Assembly (NCBI GenBank): GCA_001787755.1
Contig: MFYJ01000007.1
Span: 146,585-210,584, forward strand
Direction: 5' to 3'
Origin: Candidatus Peribacteria bacterium RIFOXYB1_FULL_54_35
GTDB lineage: Bacteria; Patescibacteriota; Gracilibacteria; Peribacterales; Peribacteraceae
DNA: 64,000 bases
Below, piece by piece: positions 1 to 26,704 of the stretch. The notes beneath the pieces were generated by a model. It had not been told where the DNA came from and did no database searches. It saw only the letters and a program-made list of their open reading frames with translations. Each line of letters begins with the position of its first letter. The stretch's first letter is position 1. The translations under genes and the position numbers were made by a program.

Positions 1-17
1 AATATCGGACGCTACGC

Positions 18-2402
18 ATGAGCCTGATCGACAACATTCGAAAAAATAATCCTGTGCTTTCCTTCGATACTGTTCTGGAGAAGGCGCAGAAGGTCATTGA
101 CCGCATTGTGTTCGCTTCATTTTGCGAGGATGTCGGCCTCTTGCCGGAAAACAAGCTTGCTGAAGTCGTGGCATACACGGAGAAAGGAGGGTTGGACATG
201 CCGATTTGGGAGATTATGAAAAAATTCTTCGTCGCTATCGATAAAGGCAGTGAGAAGATGGAAATGCCGCATGGCTACAATGGCGAGCTCTTTAAACCGG
301 ATGCGGTGCTTGACGCTCTGACGATTGATGATGAAATTTGCCGCGAGTTTGTGCGCATCGGGCGTTTCGATTTCCGCGAAGACCTTTCTGCAAATATCCT
401 CGGGCATATTTTTGAGCAGTCGATCACTGATATTGAGGAGATCAGACAGCAAAATGCACCAACAGAATCGACGCAAAAGACTTCAAAACGGAAAAAAGAT
501 GGCATCTTCTATACTCCGGAATATGTCGTGGACTTCATTGTTGCGAGCACGCTCGGCGAGTACTTGCAGGAGCTGGAGCGGTCATCATTGAGAGAGCACG
601 GCGTCAAAGAAGGTCTGCGAGATCAGAGTTACGAGAAGCGGGCTTTGAACGCCTACCTCGCGTACCGGGAACGTCTCCTGAAGCTCAAAGTGCTTGATCT
701 TGCCTGCGGGAGCGGCGCTTTCCTCGTGAAAGTGTTTGATTATCTGCGAAAAGAGCATGAGCGCATCGGAGGCATCCTTTTGGAATTACGCGGTGGTACT
801 GTGCTTGAGGAGCACGAAGAATCCGTGAAAATCTTCTTACATGAAAACATTTACGGCGTGGACTTGAATGCCGAGAGCGTTGAGATCACGAAGCTTTCAC
901 TATGGCTTAAGACAACACAGAAAGGGAAGAGGCTTGAAGACCTCAAGAACAACATCAAGTGTGGAAACAGCCTCATTGACGACTCCGAAGTCGCAGGAAC
1001 AAAAGCGTTTCACTGGGAAAAGGAATTTGCGGAGATTTTGAATTCGGGAGGTTTCGATATTATCGTCGGCAATCCGCCGTGGGGCGCGAATATCGACAAG
1101 GAGGCTGTGTGGCTTGGCAAGCATTATCCGGATTCGACGAAACACGCGAAGGACACGTACAAGCTCTTCATCGACAAGGGGTTGCAGCTCCTGAAGGAAA
1201 ACGGACGCTTCGGCTACATCGTCCCCAGCACGTTCCTCTACCAGCCGCGCTACCAGGACGTGCGCGACATCGTTGAGCGGTACCGGCACGGGGCCGTGAA
1301 TCTCGGCGAACATATTTTCGAGGGCGTCGATCTGCCCTGCGCCATTCTAGTCGTTCACAAACACAAGAAGGATAAATCAGCCATCGTGGACCTGACGAAA
1401 AAACCGCGTGGGGACATTCCATTTCTCTTGAGCAGCATCAATCTGGAGAACGAGATTGAGCGGGGTTCATCAGGTGACAAACTTCTCAAAGATACGGGGC
1501 TGACGTTTGACGATGTATTTGTATTGAAGGATGCTGGTATCAATTATCAAGCAGTGAATGTTGGAAAAGGGAAAAAAGGTGAAAGCAAATTAAGCTCGAA
1601 GTTGCTCTACTCTGGAAAGATTGGAAATCCATCCTTAGATGTCGAGTTCTGGAAGGGCGAAAACTTTCACAAGTATTCAATCGATGAATCAACGGAAAAT
1701 TTTGTACGAACAAATTATGAAGATTTCAAGGAGGATAACGAAAGGGTGATCCTTAATGACAAGTTCTTTTCAATACACCCAAAAATCCTCTGGAGACAAA
1801 CCGCCGACAGGATAATCGCGACAATTGATGAAAGGGGCATCTGGTTTGGACGCAGTGTTTTCGGCGGAGTCGTCAAAGATGAGTACAAGAAATCGGTGGA
1901 CATTTATTTTGCACTTGCGGTCTTCAATTCGGCATACATCGATTGTTTATATCAACGAAAAGTTTTAGAGACAGGCAGGATTTTCCCGCAAGTGAAACTG
2001 GCCTACATCAAGCCGTTGCCATTCGTCATACCGGACAAAGAAGCGCAGGATCGGATCGCAACACGGGTACGATCACTCATTGGGCTCGGTTCGTCGCAAC
2101 ATGAGAAACTCAGGCAAGTGCAGCAGTTACTGAAAGCGGAGTATCGCATGGAATCGATACCGAAGAAGCTGCAGAAACTCTGGGAGCTTTCCTTCGATGA
2201 TTTTCTCAAAGCCCTCAAACTCAGGAACGTATCTTTGCCGAAGAAGCAGGAATTGATGGAGTACTTCGAGCAGCAGAAAACGGCGCTCTCGACGGTCGCG
2301 GATCAGATCGAAACTCTGCAGAGAGAAATTGACGAGATGGTATGCGATGCGTATGGGCTGACGAAGGAGGAAAGAGCAATTGTTTTACGAAGCGCCACAT
2401 GA
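18..2402 (+). CDS. N6-adenine DNA methyltransferase, MmeI/Eco57I-like (type IIG/IIL-like enzyme or its MTase-TRD part); possibly 5'-truncated by the window edge
   Basis: 794-aa ORF. SAM motif I VLDLACGSGAFL and catalytic motif IV IVGNPPWG in gamma-class order. The N-terminal helical region (FASFCEDVGLLP, YNGELF, ILGHIFEQS) resembles MmeI/PglX-type enzymes. TaqI_C-like C-terminal specificity region. The frame is open from nt 3 up to the ATG at 18. Confidence 0.8.
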   Translation: MSLIDNIRKNNPVLSFDTVLEKAQKVIDRIVFASFCEDVGLLPENKLAEVVAYTEKGGLDMPIWEIMKKFFVAIDKGSEKMEMPHGYNGELFKPDAVLDALTIDDEICREFVRIGRFDFREDLSANILGHIFEQSITDIEEIRQQNAPTESTQKTSKRKKDGIFYTPEYVVDFIVASTLGEYLQELERSSLREHGVKEGLRDQSYEKRALNAYLAYRERLLKLKVLDLACGSGAFLVKVFDYLRKEHERIGGILLELRGGTVLEEHEESVKIFLHENIYGVDLNAESVEITKLSLWLKTTQKGKRLEDLKNNIKCGNSLIDDSEVAGTKAFHWEKEFAEILNSGGFDIIVGNPPWGANIDKEAVWLGKHYPDSTKHAKDTYKLFIDKGLQLLKENGRFGYIVPSTFLYQPRYQDVRDIVERYRHGAVNLGEHIFEGVDLPCAILVVHKHKKDKSAIVDLTKKPRGDIPFLLSSINLENEIERGSSGDKLLKDTGLTFDDVFVLKDAGINYQAVNVGKGKKGESKLSSKLLYSGKIGNPSLDVEFWKGENFHKYSIDESTENFVRTNYEDFKEDNERVILNDKFFSIHPKILWRQTADRIIATIDERGIWFGRSVFGGVVKDEYKKSVDIYFALAVFNSAYIDCLYQRKVLETGRIFPQVKLAYIKPLPFVIPDKEAQDRIATRVRSLIGLGSSQHEKLRQVQQLLKAEYRMESIPKKLQKLWELSFDDFLKALKLRNVSLPKKQELMEYFEQQKTALSTVADQIETLQREIDEMVCDAYGLTKEERAIVLRSAT

Positions 2403-3775
2403 AACCAGATATTACAATAGACGAGGCAACCGATCCGCGTACGTTGGCTCAGCCTCCTTTCGTCGAGTGTCCGCGATGTCATAAACAGACGAATGGTGTA
2501 TGGCACATTGGAGTGCGTTGTTATTTGCGTCTCTGTTCCGAATGTCCAATGCCGGACCCCAATCGTGGAGAGAAACCGGAAATGATCTCTTTGCCGAAGA
2601 TAGAAAAGAAAGTGATTTACTTGGATCAGCATGTCATCAGCAGCATGGCTAAGGCACTCAGGCCGGAGCTGCAGCGAACGCAGAAGATGGAGACTCGTAT
2701 CCAAGAAGACTGGATCAAACTCTTCCGGAAGTTGGATCGGCTGCGCCGCTTGCAAATGATTGTCTGCCCGTTCTCGATGCACCATCGGAGAGAGTCCTTC
2801 ATGGATGATCGGATCTATAAGTATTTGAAGACGTTGTACAAACGGCTGGCGAACGGCGTGGAGTTCTTTGAACCATTGAAAGTCCTATCCATCCAAGTGA
2901 TGCAGTACGCACGACACCATTTGGATCACTCGCAGCCTGCGTTCATCGACAATCCGCAAACCGTTGTTCTCGGCACCATCAACTCGTGGGAACGATACTC
3001 ACTGAAGGCTGGTATGCAGGACTACGGATGGAAACCCGAAGGAGCGGAATTAATGAGAAAACAAAACGCCGAATCCCATCGGATATTTCAAGAAATATAC
3101 GAACGCTGGAAGCAGGAAGGCATGAGCATCGAGGACCGAATCGAGGAAGAATCCCAAGGCTTCTCCAAATTCCTACTACAAAAAGCGCGGGAGCAATTCG
3201 GTATGCCCATCGAGCCACAGCTTGCTCAGCAGATCGAGGTAGAAATGGTGGACGACCAACATGCCTACATCAAATTGGTCGATGATGTGTACCAGCTATT
3301 CTCCGGTGGTTCGGCGATCATCAATCCCTCCCTCCTCCGGCACATGATTGATTTCTTGGCGGGTGACGATTTGAGAAAACAGGTGCCGACAATTCGGATC
3401 GAGCCGCTTCTCTGGGCGACATTGGCGAGACAGGCTGCTGCCGCAAAGGGGCGCAAAGAAGAAATTGATCATGGGGACTTCAATGATATTGGTGCGATTG
3501 CCAATATTCTACCCTATTGCGATGTAATGACAGTTGACAGAGCGTGGCATGGAAGATTGCGAGAGAATCCAGCCGCACAGGAAATGAAGAATTACAGGGC
3601 AAAGATTGTGTCTAGGAGCAATCTGCAGGAGATCATGGAGTATCTTGATCAAATCGAACGAGAGACTCCGAATCGGGTTCTGGAAGCTGTTCAGGAAGTA
3701 TGTGGAAGTCTTGAGGAGGAAGACCCCTTTGGTGAAGAAGAGATGAAACTGTATTCCAAATCGGTAAAGGACTGA
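2399..3775 (+). CDS. hypothetical protein with N-terminal four-Cys zinc ribbon and a possible split PIN-like nuclease signature
   Basis: In-frame ATG at 2399 forms an ATGA overlap with the MTase stop (2400-2402). CPRC...CSEC near the N-terminus, then KKVIYLDQHVIS, and DIGAIANILPYCDVMTVDRAW near the C-terminus. No family recognised. Confidence 0.65.
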   Translation: MKPDITIDEATDPRTLAQPPFVECPRCHKQTNGVWHIGVRCYLRLCSECPMPDPNRGEKPEMISLPKIEKKVIYLDQHVISSMAKALRPELQRTQKMETRIQEDWIKLFRKLDRLRRLQMIVCPFSMHHRRESFMDDRIYKYLKTLYKRLANGVEFFEPLKVLSIQVMQYARHHLDHSQPAFIDNPQTVVLGTINSWERYSLKAGMQDYGWKPEGAELMRKQNAESHRIFQEIYERWKQEGMSIEDRIEEESQGFSKFLLQKAREQFGMPIEPQLAQQIEVEMVDDQHAYIKLVDDVYQLFSGGSAIINPSLLRHMIDFLAGDDLRKQVPTIRIEPLLWATLARQAAAAKGRKEEIDHGDFNDIGAIANILPYCDVMTVDRAWHGRLRENPAAQEMKNYRAKIVSRSNLQEIMEYLDQIERETPNRVLEAVQEVCGSLEEEDPFGEEEMKLYSKSVKD

Positions 3776-3798
3776 TCCAGAAAAGCCCGCCGCTGGCG

Positions 3799-3818
3799 AA
3801 AACAAAGTTCGTTCCGAT
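3799..3818. repeat. 20-bp segment exactly inverted at 5416-5435
   Basis: AAAACAAAGTTCGTTCCGAT versus ATCGGAACGAACTTTGTTTT. The match breaks on both sides. Confidence 0.9.
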
Positions 3819-3874
3819 CGTTTTCACGGGCTCTTTTGCGGTTTTGCTGCGATGTCCGGCAAGTTTGTACGGTA

Positions 3875-3917
3875 GCGCGGCGGCTGCCCCAGCCCGAAGG
3901 TTTTTCAGCCGCCGCGC
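3875..3917. other. GC-rich hairpin (12-bp perfect stem, 19-nt loop)
   Basis: GCGCGGCGGCTG (3875-3886) pairs with CAGCCGCCGCGC (3906-3917). Only a weak T-run follows, so terminator function is uncertain. Confidence 0.6.
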
Positions 3918-3958
3918 CAGTTTGTGCGAAAATCGGTTCGGATTTTTTCGAAAGCGCT

Positions 3959-4037
3959 CCACCAATCACGAAATCCGCGCGAATGCGCGAGCACGCGCCA
4001 GCCGATCGCGGCTTCCCACTGCACCGCGTTCCCTTTC
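3959..4037. repeat. left copy of a 79-bp perfect inverted repeat
   Basis: CCACCAATCACGAAATCCGCGCGAATGCGCGAGCACGCGCCAGCCGATCGCGGCTTCCCACTGCACCGCGTTCCCTTTC is the exact reverse complement of 5436-5514. Confidence 0.95.
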
Positions 4038-4074
4038 GTACGCCAGCGGCGGGCTTTTCTGATACCCTGCGACC

Positions 4075-5550
4075 ATGAAAGTCATCGTGTACTGCCGCAA
4101 ATCCACAGAACAGGATGATCGCCAGATTCTCTCGATTGATGCGCAGCTTCGTGAGCTGCGCGAATACGCCGCAAAAGAACAGTTGGAAATCGTCGCCTCG
4201 CTCCGCGAGGCCAAAACCGCAAAAGAGCCCGGGCGAACCGAGTTCGCCAGAATGTTGGAAATTGTAGAGAAAGGAGGAGCAGACGGAATTCTCGCATGGC
4301 ATCCCGACAGACTCGCCAGGAACTCTGTAGACGGGGGGAGGATTATTCATCTTCTGGACACCGGCAAGCTCAAAGCGCTGAAGTTTCCCACTTTCTGGTT
4401 TGAGCCGACTCCGCAAGGGAAATTTATGCTCAACATTGCTTTCGGCCAGTCCAAGTACTACGTGGACAACCTTGCCGAGAATGTGAAACGCGGCATGCGC
4501 GAGAAAGTGCGCCGAGGCGAGTGGACGTGGCCTGCACCGCTTGGATACGTCAACAACCGAGAGGAGCGGAACATTGAGCCGGACCCCGAGAAATCGCCAA
4601 TCGTGCGCAAGGCGTTCCAAATGTACGCCACGGGAGCTCATACGCTTCTCTCGCTCCGAAACGAACTCACACTCCTCGGGCTTCGCACGCGCAAAGGCAA
4701 GGTGCTGCCGGTGTCCAATGTCCAGAAGATGCTCAAGCATCATGCGTACTACGGAGTCATCAGCATGAACGGGGAGCTGTTCCCCGGCGCGTTCGAGCCA
4801 ATTGTGAGCAGGAGACTGTTCGACGCAGCGCAGGAAGTCATGCACTTTAAGAGCAAAACCAAGCGCAGGAGAAAGCATGAGCTTCCCTTCACGGGCTTCC
4901 TGCACTGCTCAGCCTGCACCTGCGCGATAACTGCTGAAATCCAGAAAGGTCACCACTATTACCGCTGCACGCACAAGCGCGGTCCCTGCGACCAGCGCAA
5001 ATACCTGCGCGAGGAGGGATTGCTCAAAGAGGTGCGCACCATCGTCGAACGCGTCTCACTGCCCGATGACTGGGTGGACAACATGCTTGCCGAACTCGAC
5101 AAGGAGGAAGCCGAGGGAAAGTCAGATCATCGGACCTCTGTTCAGCGCCTCGAAGATGAGCGGAAGGGCATCGATCAGAAGCTCGATACCCTTCTTGATC
5201 TGCGACTGGAGGGGGCGCTCGATACCGGAGAATACCTTGTGCGAAAGAACGCGCTGGTGTCCTGTAAAGTCGAGATTGGTCAACAGATCAAGGATGCTGA
5301 ACAGAGTTGCTCACATTGGCTCGAACCCATGCGAGAGATGATTGTACGCAGTCGTGAAGCCAAGAAACTGCTCACGACGGAAAACTACTCGGAATTTCCA
5401 ACATTCCTTAAACGCATCGGAACGAACTTTGTTTTGAAAGGGAACGCGGTGCAGTGGGAAGCCGCGATCGGCTGGCGCGTGCTCGCGCATTCGCGCGGAT
5501 TTCGTGATTGGTGGGTCAGGTGGGATTTGAACCCACGGCCAATTGCTTAA
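4075..5550 (+). CDS. large serine recombinase (resolvase/invertase N-domain, recombinase domain, zinc ribbon, coiled coil)
   Basis: N-terminus MKVIVYCRKSTEQDDRQ with catalytic Ser context and HPDRLARN. Cys cluster CSACTCAITAEIQKGHHYYRCTHKRGPC. The ORF runs through the right 79-bp repeat and 42 nt into tRNA-Lys, stopping at a TAA antisense to the anticodon loop. Confidence 0.9.
   Translation: MKVIVYCRKSTEQDDRQILSIDAQLRELREYAAKEQLEIVASLREAKTAKEPGRTEFARMLEIVEKGGADGILAWHPDRLARNSVDGGRIIHLLDTGKLKALKFPTFWFEPTPQGKFMLNIAFGQSKYYVDNLAENVKRGMREKVRRGEWTWPAPLGYVNNREERNIEPDPEKSPIVRKAFQMYATGAHTLLSLRNELTLLGLRTRKGKVLPVSNVQKMLKHHAYYGVISMNGELFPGAFEPIVSRRLFDAAQEVMHFKSKTKRRRKHELPFTGFLHCSACTCAITAEIQKGHHYYRCTHKRGPCDQRKYLREEGLLKEVRTIVERVSLPDDWVDNMLAELDKEEAEGKSDHRTSVQRLEDERKGIDQKLDTLLDLRLEGALDTGEYLVRKNALVSCKVEIGQQIKDAEQSCSHWLEPMREMIVRSREAKKLLTTENYSEFPTFLKRIGTNFVLKGNAVQWEAAIGWRVLAHSRGFRDWWVRWDLNPRPIA
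5436..5514. repeat. right copy of the 79-bp perfect inverted repeat
   Basis: Exact reverse complement of 3959-4037. Its last 6 nt (TGGTGG) encode the CC-A-CCA 3' end of tRNA-Lys. Confidence 0.95.
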
Positions 5551-5585
5551 GAGGCAACTGCTCTACCGGGCTGAGCTACTGACCC
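5509..5585 (-). tRNA. tRNA-Lys (anticodon CUU), CCA encoded
   Basis: Minus-strand read GGGTCAG TA GCTC AGCCCGGTA GAGC A GTTGC CTCTTAA GCAAT TGGCC GTGGG TTCAAAT CCCAC CTGACCC A CCA (77 nt). Confidence 0.92.
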
Positions 5586-5592
5586 AAGTTCC

Positions 5593-5627
5593 AATGAAGA
5601 AGAAAGAACGGAGAATGAAGAATGACA
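5593..5627. repeat. five tandem degenerate heptamers (AAYGRMR), single arm, just upstream of the tRNA-Lys 5' end
   Basis: AATGAAG AAGAAAG AACGGAG AATGAAG AATGACA. No complementary arm found in the window. Confidence 0.55.
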
Positions 5628-6157
5628 GAGCTACTCGTCCCGCACAGGACACTGAGCTTGCCGAAGGGGACTGATGCGGGGCTGACCCGCTTCACAGCTG
5701 AAAAACCTTACCAATATCAGCCGCTGCGGTAAAGAATGCTCCCGAGAAAAGATCACTCTCCATGGCAGAGTTTGTCCATGAGGGCATCGATATCCATGGG
5801 CGGAGTATCTCCGCTTTCTGAAACAAGAGCAGCCATTGCTGCTTTGTTACTGTTTGCCCAGCCGTAGACCGGATCGGATGAGTGCGTGCATATCTGTCCG
5901 AATGCTGATTCCAGTTTCGGCCTTCTGTGGGCAAATTCTCTGTTCCGGTTTGCCCATCCGAAGGCTGGTTCATCGCGGAGGGACAGGGGTGATGGAGTGT
6001 TTCCCGGCATGGTGGTGGCAGAGTCTAGCTGGCTTGCAGATACATGCAAGCCTCTGCGTTCACCCGACTCCGTCCGCCGAAGGCGGACTTCGCCGGGTTT
6101 CGCAGATGAGAACGCAAAACGCCTGGGAAGATGCTCCGGGCTTCAGGCTAGGGAGCT

Positions 6158-26485: not shown

Positions 26486-26562
26486 GTGAGTATTCTGGTG
26501 GGTAGCACTGGATTCGAACCAGTGACCTCCGCGATGTCAACGCGACGCTCTAACCAACTGAG
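26486..26562 (-). tRNA. tRNA-Val (anticodon GAC), CCA encoded
   Basis: GGGTAGC TA GCTC AGTTGGTTA GAGC G TCGCG TTGACAT CGCGG AGGTC ACTGG TTCGAAT CCAGT GCTACCC A CCA. Confidence 0.92.
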
Positions 26563-26704
26563 CTAGCTACCCTTTAGAAGGCTGCTGAAGGGTACCAATT
26601 CTCACGGGGGGCAACAAGGGACGCCTTAATTTCTTTTGTGAAGTTTTCAGCCGCAAATGTCTTGAAAGGCTTCTTCCACAGAGCTTCATCAAGGCGTCCC
26701 GCGC

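What the first reader, a model, noticed from the sequence alone, without database searches (positions are those of the whole stretch)
3780..4059. Nested and permuted perfect inverted repeats (19 and 20 bp): an inverton-like 242-bp segment and a copy of the cassette's joined inner ends
GAAAAGCCCGCCGCTGGCG (3780-3798) is exactly inverted at 4041-4059. The pair brackets 242 bp lying between the upstream stop (3775) and the recombinase ATG (4075). That size and placement fit invertible promoter or terminator switches.

Directly abutting it, AAAACAAAGTTCGTTCCGAT (3799-3818) is exactly inverted at 5416-5435, just inside the right 79-bp repeat.

As a result, the contiguous 39-nt block 3780-3818 equals the reverse complement of the two inner ends of the recombinase cassette: 5416-5435 joined to 4041-4059, minus a GTA. 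That is the junction a circularised 4038-5435 segment would carry.

The 242-bp segment also contains a 12-bp GC-rich perfect stem (3875-3886 / 3906-3917).

Three independent perfect repeat pairs around one recombinase gene cannot be chance. They point to a multi-site DNA rearrangement (shufflon-like) switch, or to the footprint of successive integration and inversion events.
Basis: seen in the sequence. Interest (0 to 1): 0.62.

Follow-up and report, generated by a model that had tools for sequence, protein, structure and literature searches.

The report
Self-complementary leader of a tRNA-targeting recombinase island
The inverted repeats are real, but they are not a flip switch: they are conserved, co-evolving stems that let a small mobile island, driven by a serine recombinase and inserted at a tRNA gene, fold on itself around an inverted copy of its own joined ends, an arrangement I could not find described.

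Summary
All the reported repeats are exact, and a fourth 20-nt pair (3827-3846 / 4212-4231) had been missed. They are not chance, not an assembly artefact and not a relic.

The region 3778-5514 is the integration module of a small island built around a large serine recombinase (LSR). It sits at the 3' end of tRNA-Lys(CTT). Relatives lie at more than 20 different tRNAs, mostly in CPR/Patescibacteria genomes.

In 84 of 120 usable relatives (47-92% protein identity) the ~260-nt leader upstream of the recombinase gene is tiled end to end by reverse complements of other parts of the island:
- A: the region just upstream of the ATG.
- B: ORF nt 1334-1361.
- D: ORF nt 138-157.
- y: the island's far end.
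- hexamer + C: the last 79 nt of the ORF, including the tRNA's last 6 nt.

Sequences differ between relatives, yet pairing is kept (about 1.4% mismatches, no G:U excess). y-hexamer-C is an intact inverted copy of attP. Its zinc-ribbon-domain (ZD) motif sits 5 bp further out than in the tRNA arm.

Orientation is the same in all 160 loci, and no alternative junction appears in assembled unitigs. The folding-energy z-score is -18.

Best reading (inferred): a whole-island single-strand fold, probably ssDNA, in which the leader splints the two ends. Inversion is not supported, though raw reads were not available to test it.

The parts
1..3777 (+). Probable cargo of the island: a type IIG restriction-modification gene (18-2402, its N-terminus cut off by the window start) and a 477-aa ORF of unknown function (2342-3775). 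The island's far end (hexamer'-y'-F) is predicted to lie less than about 1 kb beyond the window start.
   Evidence: PADLOC match to REase_MTase_IIG, E 3.5e-95, starting at profile position 208. L005 and L015 carry the homologous gene between their distal y' copy and their leader. No rc copy of y was found in 1-3777. This part is inferred.
3778..3798 (+). Tile A: reverse complement of A' (4041-4061), the stretch 14-34 nt upstream of the recombinase ATG.
   Evidence: Exact 21-nt inverted repeat. Kept in relatives with different sequences. 14 of 16 column pairs carry more than one Watson-Crick pair type.
3799..3826 (+). Tile B: reverse complement of ORF nt 1334-1361 (B', 5408-5435). It abuts A with a 0-1 nt gap.
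   Evidence: 20 nt exact in the window and 26-28 nt in relatives. 91% Watson-Crick in an unselected sample, against 28-38% when the partner is slid.
3827..3846 (+). Tile D: reverse complement of ORF nt 138-157 (D', 4212-4231).
   Evidence: Exact 20 nt. Conserved with compensatory changes.
3847..3958 (+). y: a GC-rich stem-loop (3875-3886 / 3906-3917) followed by the P-type half-site, with GGTTCGGAT at 3935-3943, 23 nt before the hexamer. In relatives an exact rc copy of y (80-100 nt) forms the island's far end.
   Evidence: Stem co-varies in L006. The motif lies 23 nt before the hexamer in 74/81 leaders and 18 nt in 77/79 tRNA arms. Distal rc copies in 54 loci.
3959..4037 (+). Hexamer CCACCA (3959-3964, identical to the last 6 nt of tRNA-Lys) plus tile C. 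Together they are the reverse complement of the last 79 nt of the element (5436-5514) and the P' arm of the inverted attP copy. Predicted crossover dinucleotide: AC at 3961-3962.
   Evidence: 79-nt exact inverted repeat. The repeat overlaps the tRNA by exactly 6 nt in about 90% of loci, and the leader hexamer matches each locus's own tRNA. Crossover inferred from distal junctions.
4041..4061 (+). A': partner of tile A. It follows C after a 3-nt spacer (GTA) and ends 13 nt before the ATG.
   Evidence: C-A' gap 0-3 nt in most loci.
4075..5550 (+). Large serine recombinase gene (491 aa). There is no stop codon inside the element: the frame reads through C' and the hexamer complement (TGG TGG) into antisense tRNA-Lys.
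   Evidence: Pfam Resolvase + Recombinase + Zn_ribbon_recom. Distant matches to CcrB, XisF and the SPbeta integrase. Stop lies 6-273 nt beyond the element in the relatives with an intact ORF; two are pseudogenes.
4159..4194 (+). F': ORF nt about 85-120, the partner of tile F, which in relatives lies next to the distal y'. The partner is off this window.
   Evidence: Strongest synonymous-site constraint in the gene. A perfect tile F of 14-37 nt in 36 of 38 relatives.
4212..4231 (+). D': partner of tile D (codons 46-52).
4250..4263 (+). E: intragenic arm pairing with E' (5393-5406). It closes a 1.13-kb loop of the ORF.
   Evidence: pair I7. A perfect helix of 8 bp or more at this position in 85% of 52 relatives, against 3% in shifted controls, with 32 distinct sequences.
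5393..5406 (+). E': partner of E. It lies 1 nt before B' (5408).
5408..5435 (+). B': partner of tile B. It encodes the conserved IG(T/S)N motif.
   Evidence: synonymous-site constraint at nt 1327-1368.
5436..5514 (+). C' plus the hexamer complement: the coding 3' end of the recombinase and the element's tRNA-proximal end (a B-P' hybrid site together with the tRNA).
   Evidence: Logan 79-nt unitig at about twice the flanking depth.
5509..5585 (-). tRNA-Lys(CTT), the integration target (B arm). Its T-loop motif GTTCAAA lies 18 nt before the hexamer.
   Evidence: ARAGORN. Rfam tRNA, 74.6 bits. Spacing statistics.

Best explanation
SHOWN.

The repeats belong to the integration module (3778-5514) of a small genomic island driven by a large serine recombinase (LSR). 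The island is inserted at the 3' end of tRNA-Lys(CTT).

The ~260-nt leader upstream of the recombinase gene is tiled, with almost no gaps, by reverse complements of other island parts. In order these are A, B, D, y, hexamer, C.

y-hexamer-C is an intact, inverted copy of the island's attP, that is, of its joined ends. The other tiles match:
- the region just upstream of the ATG (A');
- codons 46-52 (D');
- the last 105 nt of the ORF (B' + C').

In relatives, the far end of the island carries rc(y) plus a further tile, F, complementary to ORF nt 85-120.

Taken together, the pairs define three near-perfect three-way junctions:
- A:A', B:B', C:C';
- B:B', D:D', E:E';
- D:D', y:y', F:F'.

The variable cargo loops out of this scaffold.

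INFERRED.

1. The pairs act as stems when the whole island is single-stranded, most likely as ssDNA, for example after uptake by natural transformation or on a replication template.

2. In that fold the leader is an internal splint. Both island termini (dn'-hexamer'-y' and C'-hexamer'-tRNA') anneal side by side on y-hexamer-C as a double flap with a 6-nt overlap.

3. Flap trimming and ligation would then give a single-stranded circle whose attP is already duplex.

4. This would let an island that carries an integrase but no recognisable directionality factor leave one genome and integrate at any tRNA gene with the same 3' hexamer.

The repeats do not work by DNA inversion.
For: Repeats and family-wide conservation.
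- Exactness of the repeats in the window.
- The same four pairs lie at the same relative coordinates in about 60 of 70 genome loci.
- They are also found in 84 of 120 usable loci once metagenome loci are added.
- Sequences differ between loci, for example L006.

Covariation.
- A blind column-pair scan recovers exactly these helices. Pairs with more than one Watson-Crick type: A 14/16, B 16/26, D 9/20, C 67/70.
- In a sample of 45 loci drawn at random without regard to repeat pattern, 78-93% of cells are Watson-Crick, against 23-60% when the partner is slid.

Tiling and ends.
- Tiles abut. Modal gaps are A-B 0, B-D 0-1, B'-C' 0 and C-A' 0-3 nt.
- The far end carries an exact rc copy of y plus the hexamer in 54 loci, 0.55-5.3 kb away.
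- That identity runs 80-100 nt and starts 0-3 nt after D.
- Tile F is present in 36 of 38 loci and coincides with the strongest synonymous-site constraint in the gene.

Overall structure.
- Intragenic helices occur at homologous positions in 40-88% of loci, against 0-10% in shifted controls.
- Folding-energy z-score is -18.1 (+ strand) and -16.2 (- strand). Neighbouring genes give +0.8 to -1.3.
- The ORF interior alone gives -7.3.

DNA rather than RNA.
- Of 248 mismatches in 17,583 paired positions, 70 are G:T, 76 are A:C and 102 are of other kinds. There is no wobble excess on either strand.
- y:y' and F:F' span variable cargo whose genes run in both orientations.
- Hairpins in y are mostly 3-nt loops (43 of 72). 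GCA and GAA account for 25, and the closing pair is C:G in 56 of 72.

The attP reading.
- The GTTCRD motif lies 23 nt before the hexamer in 74/81 leaders and 18 nt in 77/79 tRNA arms. The difference is +5 in 66/73 loci.
- This is the attP-versus-attB ZD-motif shift described by Rutherford et al. 2013 (PMC3783163).
- The leader hexamer matches each locus's own tRNA.
- Distal junctions keep 4 or 6 nt of the hexamer.

Other points.
- No conserved second gene that could serve as a directionality factor was found in the cargo.
- Orientation is fixed in all loci.
Against: - No single-stranded or circular form has been observed. Only assembled unitigs were available, and no circle junction or empty site turned up.
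- No RNA data cover the locus, so an RNA fold is not excluded.
- Long-range pairing is equally possible on either strand. After controlling for base composition, no strand asymmetry remains.
- All seven helices cannot be nested. The fold is pseudoknotted, and nobody has shown that they form together.
- Serine recombinases are not known to use folded single-stranded substrates.
- The flap-trimming and ligation step is my own construction from the geometry.
- For this window, the distal y' and tile F lie off the left edge, so that part rests on relatives only.
- About 30% of usable relatives lack one or more tiles. A variant subfamily (L068, L069, L071) arranges its tiles differently.
- The near-perfect identity of the long C and y repeats could be kept by gene conversion rather than by function.
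Confidence: 0.4

Rival explanations
1. RNA-level lock. The leader is part of, or is transcribed next to, the recombinase message. As RNA it pairs in cis or in trans with the 5' region, codons 46-52 and the 3' end. This would block translation and create long duplexes for RNase III. Read-through transcripts from the cargo (+ strand) or from the tRNA promoter (- strand) would then never yield recombinase while the island is integrated. The principle is that of IS10/IS50 fold-back inhibition and antisense control.
For: - A' ends 13 nt before the ATG.
- In the window the cargo ORF stops 2 nt before tile A with no terminator between them, so read-through is likely.
- In the variant subfamily the 35 nt directly upstream of the ATG pair with ORF nt 262-281 and 357-373, as expected for hiding a ribosome-binding region.
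- The ORF has no stop codon inside the element.
- The gene is always convergent with the tRNA.
- RNA is the one single-stranded form that certainly exists.
Against: - There is no G:U excess: 70 G:T against 76 A:C among 17,583 paired positions, about 0.4% each. Functional RNA helices usually carry several per cent G:U (my general knowledge).
- The long 79-100-bp helix has fewer mismatches than the 20-bp helices. That is the opposite of what stability-based selection would predict.
- y:y' and F:F' would need one transcript across 0.6-5 kb of variable cargo in either orientation.
- No conserved promoter was found.
- No expression data are available.
Confidence: 0.25
2. Inversion switch across the 79-nt repeat. 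Homologous (or recombinase-mediated) inversion of 4038-5435 would put the gene directly downstream of, and co-directional with, the tRNA promoter. It would also join the gene to the leader's rc copy of its native 3' end (C'-hexamer'-y' with an in-frame stop). That would be the ON state. The orientation seen here would be the OFF state. This is the closest surviving form of the first reader's idea.
For: - A perfect 79-100-bp inverted repeat flanks the cassette in nearly all loci.
- In the orientation seen, the ORF lacks its own stop codon. The flipped or circular form would end 20 codons after the hexamer, with the tail SAFEKIRTDF....
- Unitigs with k=31 cannot resolve orientation across 79 nt.
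- Many contigs break at this repeat.
Against: - None of 160 assembled loci is in the flipped orientation.
- Serine integrases are reported not to recombine attP with a hybrid site (my general knowledge; not tested here).
- It does not explain tiles A, B, D, E or F, nor the structure across the whole gene.
Confidence: 0.12
3. Protein-binding accessory site. The inverted attP copy is bound by the recombinase as duplex DNA. It would serve as an operator for autoregulation, or as an architectural third site that relieves the coiled-coil lock of the two hybrid end sites and so substitutes for a directionality factor. On this view the short tiles are incidental remains of an inverted partial duplication.
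For: - The leader site has both arms, dyad symmetry and attP-type motif spacing.
- It lies 100-140 bp upstream of the gene.
- No directionality-factor candidate was found in the cargo.
Against: - Protein binding needs about 50 bp. It does not need 170-190 bp of perfect identity, nor co-varying 20-bp tiles that match coding sequence.
- It gives no account of tile F, tile E or the intragenic helices.
Confidence: 0.1
4. Frozen relic or footprint of past integration and inversion events, or an assembly artefact of de Bruijn graphs (the repeat lengths of 21 and 79 are close to common k-mer sizes).
For: - The repeat lengths 21, 20 and 79 resemble assembler k values (my own remark).
- The arrangement is fixed in relatives.
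Against: - Independent assemblies made with different assemblers give the same architecture with other repeat lengths: 66-146 nt for C and 16-30 nt for the tiles.
- Logan unitigs from 6 runs reproduce the window sequence exactly, with the 79-mer at double depth.
- Compensatory changes and synonymous-site constraint show that the arrangement is being maintained.
Confidence: 0.02

Closest known systems
Large serine recombinase (serine integrase) integrative elements: phage integrases such as A118/LI, phiC31, Bxb1 and SPbeta SprA; SCCmec CcrAB; the fdxN-element XisF; and the minority of tRNA-associated tycheposons that carry an LSR (bioRxiv 10.1101/2020.12.28.424599)
   Same: - Same three-domain enzyme.
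- attP and attB half-sites share a motif that sits 5 bp further out in attP.
- A cargo-carrying island flanked by hybrid sites at a tRNA gene.
   Different: - The protein falls far below the family cut-offs for CcrB, XisF and others, with only about 25-38 bits to solved LSR structures.
- The target is the extreme 3' end of many different tRNAs, chosen by a 6-nt core.
- attP lies inside the integrase ORF, which has no stop codon of its own.
- The integrated island keeps a second, intact, inverted attP plus co-varying tiles.
- No directionality factor is recognisable.
- I found no description of any of these leader features.
Folded single-stranded recombination sites: CTX-phi attP(+), formed by two inverted dif-like sites in the ssDNA genome, and integron attC sites (named from my own knowledge)
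   Same: Two inverted copies on one strand anneal to rebuild a duplex recombination site. Strict Watson-Crick complementarity is maintained over evolution. The link to ssDNA entry routes fits the absence of any G:U signal.
   Different: - Those systems use tyrosine recombinases that exchange one strand pair; here the enzyme is a serine recombinase.
- The arms here are 170-190 nt and lie 1.4 kb apart.
- There are no extrahelical bases.
- Five further helices tie in the gene and the far end.
- No experimental evidence exists for an ssDNA form.
Transposase silencing by RNA pairing: IS10/IS50 fold-back inhibition, IS10 RNA-OUT and IS200 leader structures (named from my own knowledge)
   Same: An upstream element-encoded sequence complementary to the start region of the recombinase or transposase message protects against read-through from outside.
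   Different: - Those structures are local and are single helices.
- Here there are seven helices over 1.7 to more than 7 kb.
- They include the far end of the island and a full attP copy.
- They show no wobble pairs.
DNA invertase switches (Hin, Gin, Cin, Pin), invertons and the R64 shufflon
   Same: A recombinase gene bracketed by inverted repeats. Alternative C-terminal coding segments would be possible in principle.
   Different: - Only one orientation is seen in 160 loci.
- The enzyme is a large serine integrase type, not a small invertase with an enhancer, and not the Rci tyrosine recombinase.
- The repeats match coding sequence and co-vary with it.
IS110-family bridge RNA (named from my own knowledge)
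   Same: A non-coding segment at the recombinase-proximal end of the element encodes, by base complementarity, both ends of the element and the target core.
   Different: - That family uses a different enzyme class (DEDD/RuvC-like).
- Its guide segments are 4-9 nt in a folded RNA.
- Here the complementarity runs 20-100 nt with no sign of RNA-type pairing.
- Target choice here fits protein recognition of the tRNA T-loop plus a 6-nt core.

Membership tests
Large serine recombinase (serine integrase) | N-terminal resolvase catalytic domain with the nucleophilic serine | tested here: met
   PF00239, E 3.3e-23, residues 3-150. Y6, R8, K9 and S10 are invariant in 17 relatives.
Large serine recombinase (serine integrase) | Recombinase domain and zinc-ribbon domain C-terminal to the catalytic domain | tested here: met
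   PF07508, E 1.1e-13. PF13408 scores 26.5 bits against a cut-off of 25.3, so it only just passes. The Cys cluster C278, C281, C298 and C305 is invariant.
Large serine recombinase (serine integrase) | attP and attB half-sites share a ZD motif displaced by 5 bp (Rutherford 2013) | tested here: met
   GTTCRD lies 23 nt (leader) against 18 nt (tRNA) before the hexamer. The difference is +5 in 66 of 73 loci. The rule was read in PMC3783163.
Large serine recombinase (serine integrase) | Integrated element flanked by hybrid sites that share a central dinucleotide | tested here: inconclusive
   The right hybrid site is present in the window. The left hybrid site lies off the window. In 37 relatives it is present and shares 4 or 6 nt, which points to the discriminator base plus C74 as the crossover. 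There is no biochemical proof.
Large serine recombinase (serine integrase) | Recombination directionality factor encoded by the element | tested here: not met
   No conserved gene is shared by the cargos of 37 islands; only XRE-type HTH genes occur, and only in some. A small or unrelated factor cannot be excluded.
Inverton / DNA invertase switch | Both orientations of the bracketed segment occur in populations or relatives | tested here: not met
   0 of 160 loci are inverted. No joints appear in unitigs of 6 runs for the A, B and D repeats. Orientation across the 79-nt repeat cannot be tested with k=31 unitigs.
Inverton / DNA invertase switch | Small serine invertase (about 190 aa, C-terminal HTH) or tyrosine invertase acting on short identical inverted sites | tested here: not met
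   The protein is 491 aa with the LSR architecture.
Shufflon | Rci tyrosine recombinase, and several 19-bp repeats separating alternative 3' gene segments | tested here: not met
   There is no tyrosine recombinase. Each repeat occurs exactly twice and matches unrelated parts of one gene.
Folded-ssDNA recombination site (attC, CTX-phi attP type) | Two inverted copies on one strand able to rebuild a duplex site | tested here: met
   y-hexamer-C against C'-hexamer'(-y') is complementary at about 99% in the repeats detected (96-100% locus by locus).
Folded-ssDNA recombination site (attC, CTX-phi attP type) | Recombination demonstrated on the single-stranded form, by a tyrosine recombinase | not testable with these tools
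   The enzyme here is a serine recombinase, so membership is not claimed. Only the working principle is compared.
Curated RNA families (Rfam 15) | Match to a described structured RNA in 3500-5800 | tested here: not met
   Only the tRNA matches. Nothing matches in the leader at E up to 1.

The most novel reading that the evidence does not exclude
The leader is a built-in nucleic-acid splint. It lets the island excise and circularise as single-stranded DNA using only host flap nucleases and ligase, and it presents a ready-made duplex attP to the serine integrase. This would be a transformation-coupled, directionality-factor-free life cycle for a serine-recombinase element. The target tRNA would be specified partly by a 6-nt core written into the splint.
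Probability: 0.2. Interest if true: 0.9.

Novelty: new variant of a known kind. Interest (0 to 1): 0.78.

Why it matters
Serine integrases are one-way enzymes, and how islands without a directionality factor ever leave a genome is an open problem.

This family is very common. It sits mainly in the ultra-small CPR/Patescibacteria, and only a few, mostly partial, copies turned up in viral contigs. These bacteria are thought to depend on DNA uptake (my general knowledge).

The islands carry defence cargo such as a type IIG restriction enzyme. The family shows an unusually explicit, sequence-encoded architecture: seven co-evolving helices, three three-way junctions and an inverted copy of the joined ends.

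If the fold acts on single-stranded DNA, it would be a new way for a mobile element to couple excision to uptake or replication. It would also be the first folded-substrate logic linked to a serine recombinase.

Even if the function turns out to be RNA-level silencing, three things follow directly from this analysis:
- a rule for finding such islands and their exact ends;
- a predicted attP/attB pair with a programmable 6-nt core;
- a natural set of orthogonal tRNA-targeting integrases.

Tried and rejected
- Chance and assembly artefact: rejected.
- A simple 1.74-kb IS-like element ending at tile A: I held this view until one search showed the true far end (an rc copy of y plus the hexamer) 0.55-5.3 kb further left. 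My earlier reading of hairpin + T-run in the left flank as the tRNA's own terminator was wrong. A strict scan finds such terminators in only 8 of 87 loci.
- Leader as a coding sequence or mini-protein: rejected. Gaps between tiles vary by non-multiples of 3, and C is read in another frame.
- y as a decayed rc copy of the gene's 5' part: rejected. Alignment z is about 0.4.
- tRNA-like RNA or any Rfam family in the leader: none.
- Strand of action from wobble pairs: no signal. An apparent minus-strand G:U extension at tile B was a composition artefact at the A/C' boundary. An apparent + strand stability excess in y disappeared after shuffling controls.
- Conserved sigma-70-like promoter next to the ATG: not found.
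- Circle junctions, empty sites and inverted junctions in Logan unitigs of X1, X2, X3, X4, X6 and X10: none. The loose ends seen at 3798/3799 and 5514 are the repeats' own partners.
- RNA-seq: the only runs hold none of the sequence.
- Small contigs of element size as circles: no terminal overlaps. They end in the C repeat.
- Literature: four full-text searches found no description of this architecture.
Full report
1. OBSERVATION

- A 3778-3798 is the reverse complement of A' 4041-4061 (21 nt).
- B 3799-3818 is the reverse complement of B' 5416-5435 (20 nt).
- C 3959-4037 is the reverse complement of C' 5436-5514 (79 nt).
- 3875-3886 pairs with 3906-3917 (12 bp).
- The 39-nt block 3780-3818 equals rc(5416-5435) preceded by rc(4041-4059).

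Two further exact pairs had been missed:
- D 3827-3846 / D' 4212-4231 (20 nt);
- E 4250-4263 / E' 5393-5406 (14 nt).

The segment 3778-4037 is therefore a mosaic of reverse-complement pieces of the neighbouring gene. None of this is expected by chance: BLAST E-values within the window run from 1e-4 to 7e-37.

2. WHAT THE GENE AND ITS SETTING ARE

The ORF 4075-5550 is a large serine recombinase, with Resolvase, Recombinase and zinc-ribbon domains. It is only distantly related to CcrB, XisF and the SPbeta integrase.

Its reading frame has no stop codon before it runs, antisense, into tRNA-Lys(CTT) at 5509-5585 on the minus strand.

Upstream lie a type IIG restriction-modification gene, cut off by the window start, and a 477-aa ORF of unknown function.

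3. RELATIVES

They come overwhelmingly from CPR/Patescibacteria metagenome-assembled genomes. Only a few, mostly partial, copies appear in viral contigs.

In every locus where a tRNA could be called, the gene ends antisense in a tRNA gene. More than 20 different tRNAs are used, and the orientation is always the same.

The whole unit 3778-5586 is conserved at 77-90% DNA identity in L001 and L003-L005. Each of these loci has its own A, B, D and C pairs. In L006 the A and D sequences are different, yet still complementary.

4. THE PAIRS ARE A FAMILY FEATURE AND THEY CO-VARY

Relative to the ATG, the leader segments and their partners are:
- about -310..-285 with -44..-17;
- about -285..-260 with +1334..1360;
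- about -258..-238 with +137..156;
- about -145..-45 with +1360..1460.

This holds in about 60 of 70 genome loci at 47-92% protein identity, and in 84 of 120 usable loci after the metagenome loci were added.

A blind scan of all column pairs in an alignment of 40 non-redundant elements recovers exactly these helices. Most pairs show more than one Watson-Crick type: A 14/16, B 16/26, D 9/20, C 67/70.

In a sample of 45 loci drawn at random without regard to repeat pattern, 78-93% of cells are Watson-Crick. When the 3' partner is slid by 1-3 columns the figure drops to 23-60%.

The arrangement is therefore neither a relic nor an artefact.

5. GEOMETRY

The tiles abut. Modal gaps are A-B 0 nt, B-D 0-1, B'-C' 0 and C-A' 0-3. 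Because A->B, B'->C' and C->A' are each continuous strands, A:A', B:B' and C:C' meet in a three-way junction.

E' ends 1 nt before B', and E lies 18 nt after D' (17 nt by the relatives' D' coordinate of nt 138-156). B:B', D:D' and E:E' therefore form a second junction, closing 1.13 kb of the ORF.

E:E' and about a dozen further intragenic helices occur at homologous positions in 40-88% of 52 loci, against 0-10% in shifted controls. Their sequences differ between subfamilies.

Synonymous sites are constrained at nt 85-120, at nt 1327-1368 and throughout C'.

The folding-energy z-scores are:
- element, + strand: -18.1;
- element, - strand: -16.2;
- three neighbouring genes: +0.8 to -1.3;
- ORF interior alone: -7.3.

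6. THE C REPEAT CONTAINS AN ATTACHMENT SITE

The C/C' repeat overlaps the tRNA by exactly its last 6 nt (NNNCCA) in about 90% of loci. The leader copy of that hexamer matches each locus's own tRNA: CCACCA, GCACCA, CAGCCA, GAGCCA, CCGCCA, CTGCCA or GTACCA.

Closely related elements with different hexamers sit in tRNAs with the matching ends. L039 and L041 are one example. L021 and L034 are another: the same island, with one hexamer, sits next to tRNA-Gly(CCC) and tRNA-Arg(TCG) respectively.

Upstream of the hexamer, the leader carries a conserved GTTCRD motif 23 nt away in 74/81 loci. The tRNA T-loop carries the same motif 18 nt away in 77/79 loci. The difference is +5 in 66/73 loci.

Rutherford et al. 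2013 showed that the zinc-ribbon-domain motif of serine integrases lies 5 bp closer to the centre in attB than in attP (PMC3783163).

So y-end | hexamer | C-start has the make-up of an attP. It lies, intact and inverted, inside the integrated element.

7. THE ELEMENT IS LARGER THAN THE MODULE

I first took tile A as the left end. One search corrected this. In 54 loci an exact reverse-complement copy of y-end plus hexamer lies 0.55-5.3 kb further left.

In tRNA sense, that far junction reads y-end, then N1N2N3C(+CA), then unrelated DNA. It shares 4 nt (13 loci) or 6 nt (13 loci) with the leader site. This places the crossover at the discriminator base plus C74: AC at 3961-3962 in the leader copy, and 5511-5512 at the tRNA junction.

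The island therefore reads:

tRNA - hexamer - C ... recombinase (antisense) ... rc(leader) - cargo - y - hexamer - flank.

Cargo is variable. It includes XRE-type regulators, a type IIG restriction enzyme and small ORFs, but no gene common to all islands.

In the window, the far end lies beyond position 1. By analogy with L005 and L015, genes 18-3775 are cargo.

8. A SIXTH TILE

The y/y' identity is 80-100 nt long and starts 0-3 nt after D.

Directly next to the distal y', 36 of 38 islands carry a perfect 14-37-nt tile F, complementary to ORF nt about 85-120. This is precisely the strongest synonymous-constraint peak.

The continuous strands y'->F, F'->(17 nt)->D' and D->y give a third three-way junction.

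Every nucleotide of the leader is thus complementary to some other part of the island, and the cargo is the only part that loops out.

9. WHICH MOLECULE FOLDS?

Mismatches in the helices are rare (248 of 17,583 positions) and look like plain mutational noise: 70 G:T, 76 A:C and 102 of other kinds. There is no wobble excess on either strand.

The long helix has fewer mismatches than the short ones. After composition controls, no strand asymmetry remains.

The y:y' and F:F' pairs bridge variable cargo whose genes run in both orientations, which a single mRNA would rarely span.

The strongest hairpins in y are mostly 3-nt loops: GCA 19, GAA 6, and their complements 8, out of 43. The closing pair is C:G in 56 of 72. 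From my general knowledge, this is the type known to be exceptionally stable in DNA.

These points favour a single-stranded DNA form of the whole island over an RNA, but they do not prove it. No RNA data exist for the locus.

10. MECHANISM PROPOSED (INFERRED)

On one strand, both island termini are complementary to adjacent parts of the leader's y-hexamer-C. They would anneal side by side as a double flap with a 6-nt overlap.

Trimming and ligation would produce a single-stranded circle whose attP is already duplex, about 170-190 bp long. The other helices would hold the recombinase cassette and the far end in register regardless of cargo size.

This would explain several observations at once:
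- why an island with a one-way integrase and no visible directionality factor is so widespread;
- why the leader hexamer must match the tRNA;
- why pairing is strictly Watson-Crick.

The principle is that of CTX-phi attP(+) and integron attC sites, but with a serine recombinase, for which no such substrate is known.

I give the whole statement 0.4. Within it, I rate the descriptive part at about 0.9: a conserved, co-varying pairing scheme that contains an inverted attP and is not an inversion switch.

11. RIVALS

- RNA-level fold-back or antisense lock on recombinase expression (0.25). It fits A' lying next to the ATG, the variant subfamily in which the 35 nt before the ATG pair with the ORF, the lack of a stop codon, and the convergent tRNA. 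It fits poorly with the absence of G:U pairs and with the tiles that lie beyond the cargo.
- Inversion across the 79-nt repeat (0.12). This would place the gene under the tRNA promoter and restore its native 3' end. It cannot be excluded with k=31 unitigs, but it has zero support in 160 assemblies and leaves the other tiles unexplained.
- Accessory protein-binding attP (0.1).
- Relic or artefact (0.02).

12. READ EVIDENCE

Only Logan unitigs were available. They reproduce the window exactly, with the 79-mer at about double depth. In six runs at 10-25x they show no joints, no circle junction and no empty site.

This is weak negative evidence for inversion at A, B and D. It says nothing about inversion at C.

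13. NOVELTY

Serine-integrase islands at tRNA genes are known. Features that I did not find described in four full-text searches, and that match no Rfam family, are:
- a leader tiled with co-varying reverse complements of the gene;
- an intact inverted attP retained in the integrated state;
- an integrase ORF that spans attP and has no stop codon of its own;
- a network of three-way junctions.

I file it as a new variant of a known kind. The enzyme and the integration logic are conventional. The self-complementary architecture and what it implies are not.

Noticed in passing
window 26496-26572 (-): tRNA-Val(GAC) ends in ...CTACCCACCA. This is the same hexamer, CCACCA, as the element's core, with a GGTTCGAAT T-loop at the attB-type spacing. 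No element lies downstream. It is an unoccupied candidate attB in the same genome. tRNA-Pro (CGACCA) and tRNA-Met (CAACCA) have other hexamers.
   Followed up: partly
window 18-2402 and 2342-3775 (+): A type IIG restriction-modification enzyme lacks its N-terminal nuclease part because of the window edge (PADLOC E 3.5e-95). It overlaps by 61 nt a 477-aa ORF that has no family match in Pfam, NCBIfam or PADLOC. Homologues of both travel with related islands: L005 and L015 carry them, and L003 carries the 477-aa gene in the opposite orientation.
   Followed up: partly
L021:782-3451 and L034:800-3469: The same 2.7-kb island (93-100% identity, with a lipoprotein-like cargo ORF) lies next to tRNA-Gly(CCC) in one genome and tRNA-Arg(TCG) in another. 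Both tRNAs end in GCACCA. This is direct evidence of recent mobility and of target choice by the hexamer.
   Followed up: partly
L068, L069, L071 (relative to the ATG: -294..-149, -111..-99, -77..-64, -45..-29, -29..-10): A variant subfamily has a 127-147-nt C repeat and places its short tiles between C and the ATG. The tiles are complementary to ORF nt 1332-1344, 1287-1300, 357-373 and 262-281. All of them are nested, so here the fold is a simple giant hairpin, and the 35 nt before the ATG are paired with the ORF.
   Followed up: no
L010, L011, L012, L014, L016, L018, L023, L056 (80-340 nt left of the leader, minus strand): A small XRE-family HTH gene of about 68 aa lies divergently next to tile A in at least 10 loci. 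A second HTH family occupies the same position in L058, L072 and L080. Both are possible regulators of the module.
   Followed up: no
distal junctions of 37 islands: In 13 islands the displaced tRNA end at the far junction reads N1N2N3C followed by non-CA bases. Those target tRNA genes probably did not encode the full CCA, and after integration the element supplies the CA.
   Followed up: no
window 5515-5550 versus rc(3899-3958): The recombinase C-terminus depends on context. In the integrated form it is ...DWW-VRWDLNPRPIA, read from antisense tRNA. The circular-form tail would be ...DWW-SAFEKIRTDFRTNWRGG, read from rc(y). The pattern S-x-(L/F)-E-x-(V/I)-R-T-x-F recurs in L021. This could be a context-dependent switch, or merely the protein shadow of the P-arm DNA motif.
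   Followed up: partly
window 3897-3909 / 5697-5709: A 13-nt exact inverted repeat lies between the loop of the y hairpin and DNA 110 nt beyond the tRNA. Its BLAST E-value is 3.6, so it is at chance level.
   Followed up: no
L019 and L054: The recombinase ORFs are interrupted (stops after 177 and 216 codons) although all tiles are intact. These look like recently inactivated copies.
   Followed up: no
L030 (1471 nt), plus L013, L045, L046, L073, L074 and L002: Many public contigs begin or end inside the C repeat. L030 carries a coverage tag of 116x in its name. The element therefore breaks short-read assemblies and is probably multi-copy in some genomes. Several MAGs hold two copies at different tRNAs, for example L001/L002 and L008/L018.
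   Followed up: no
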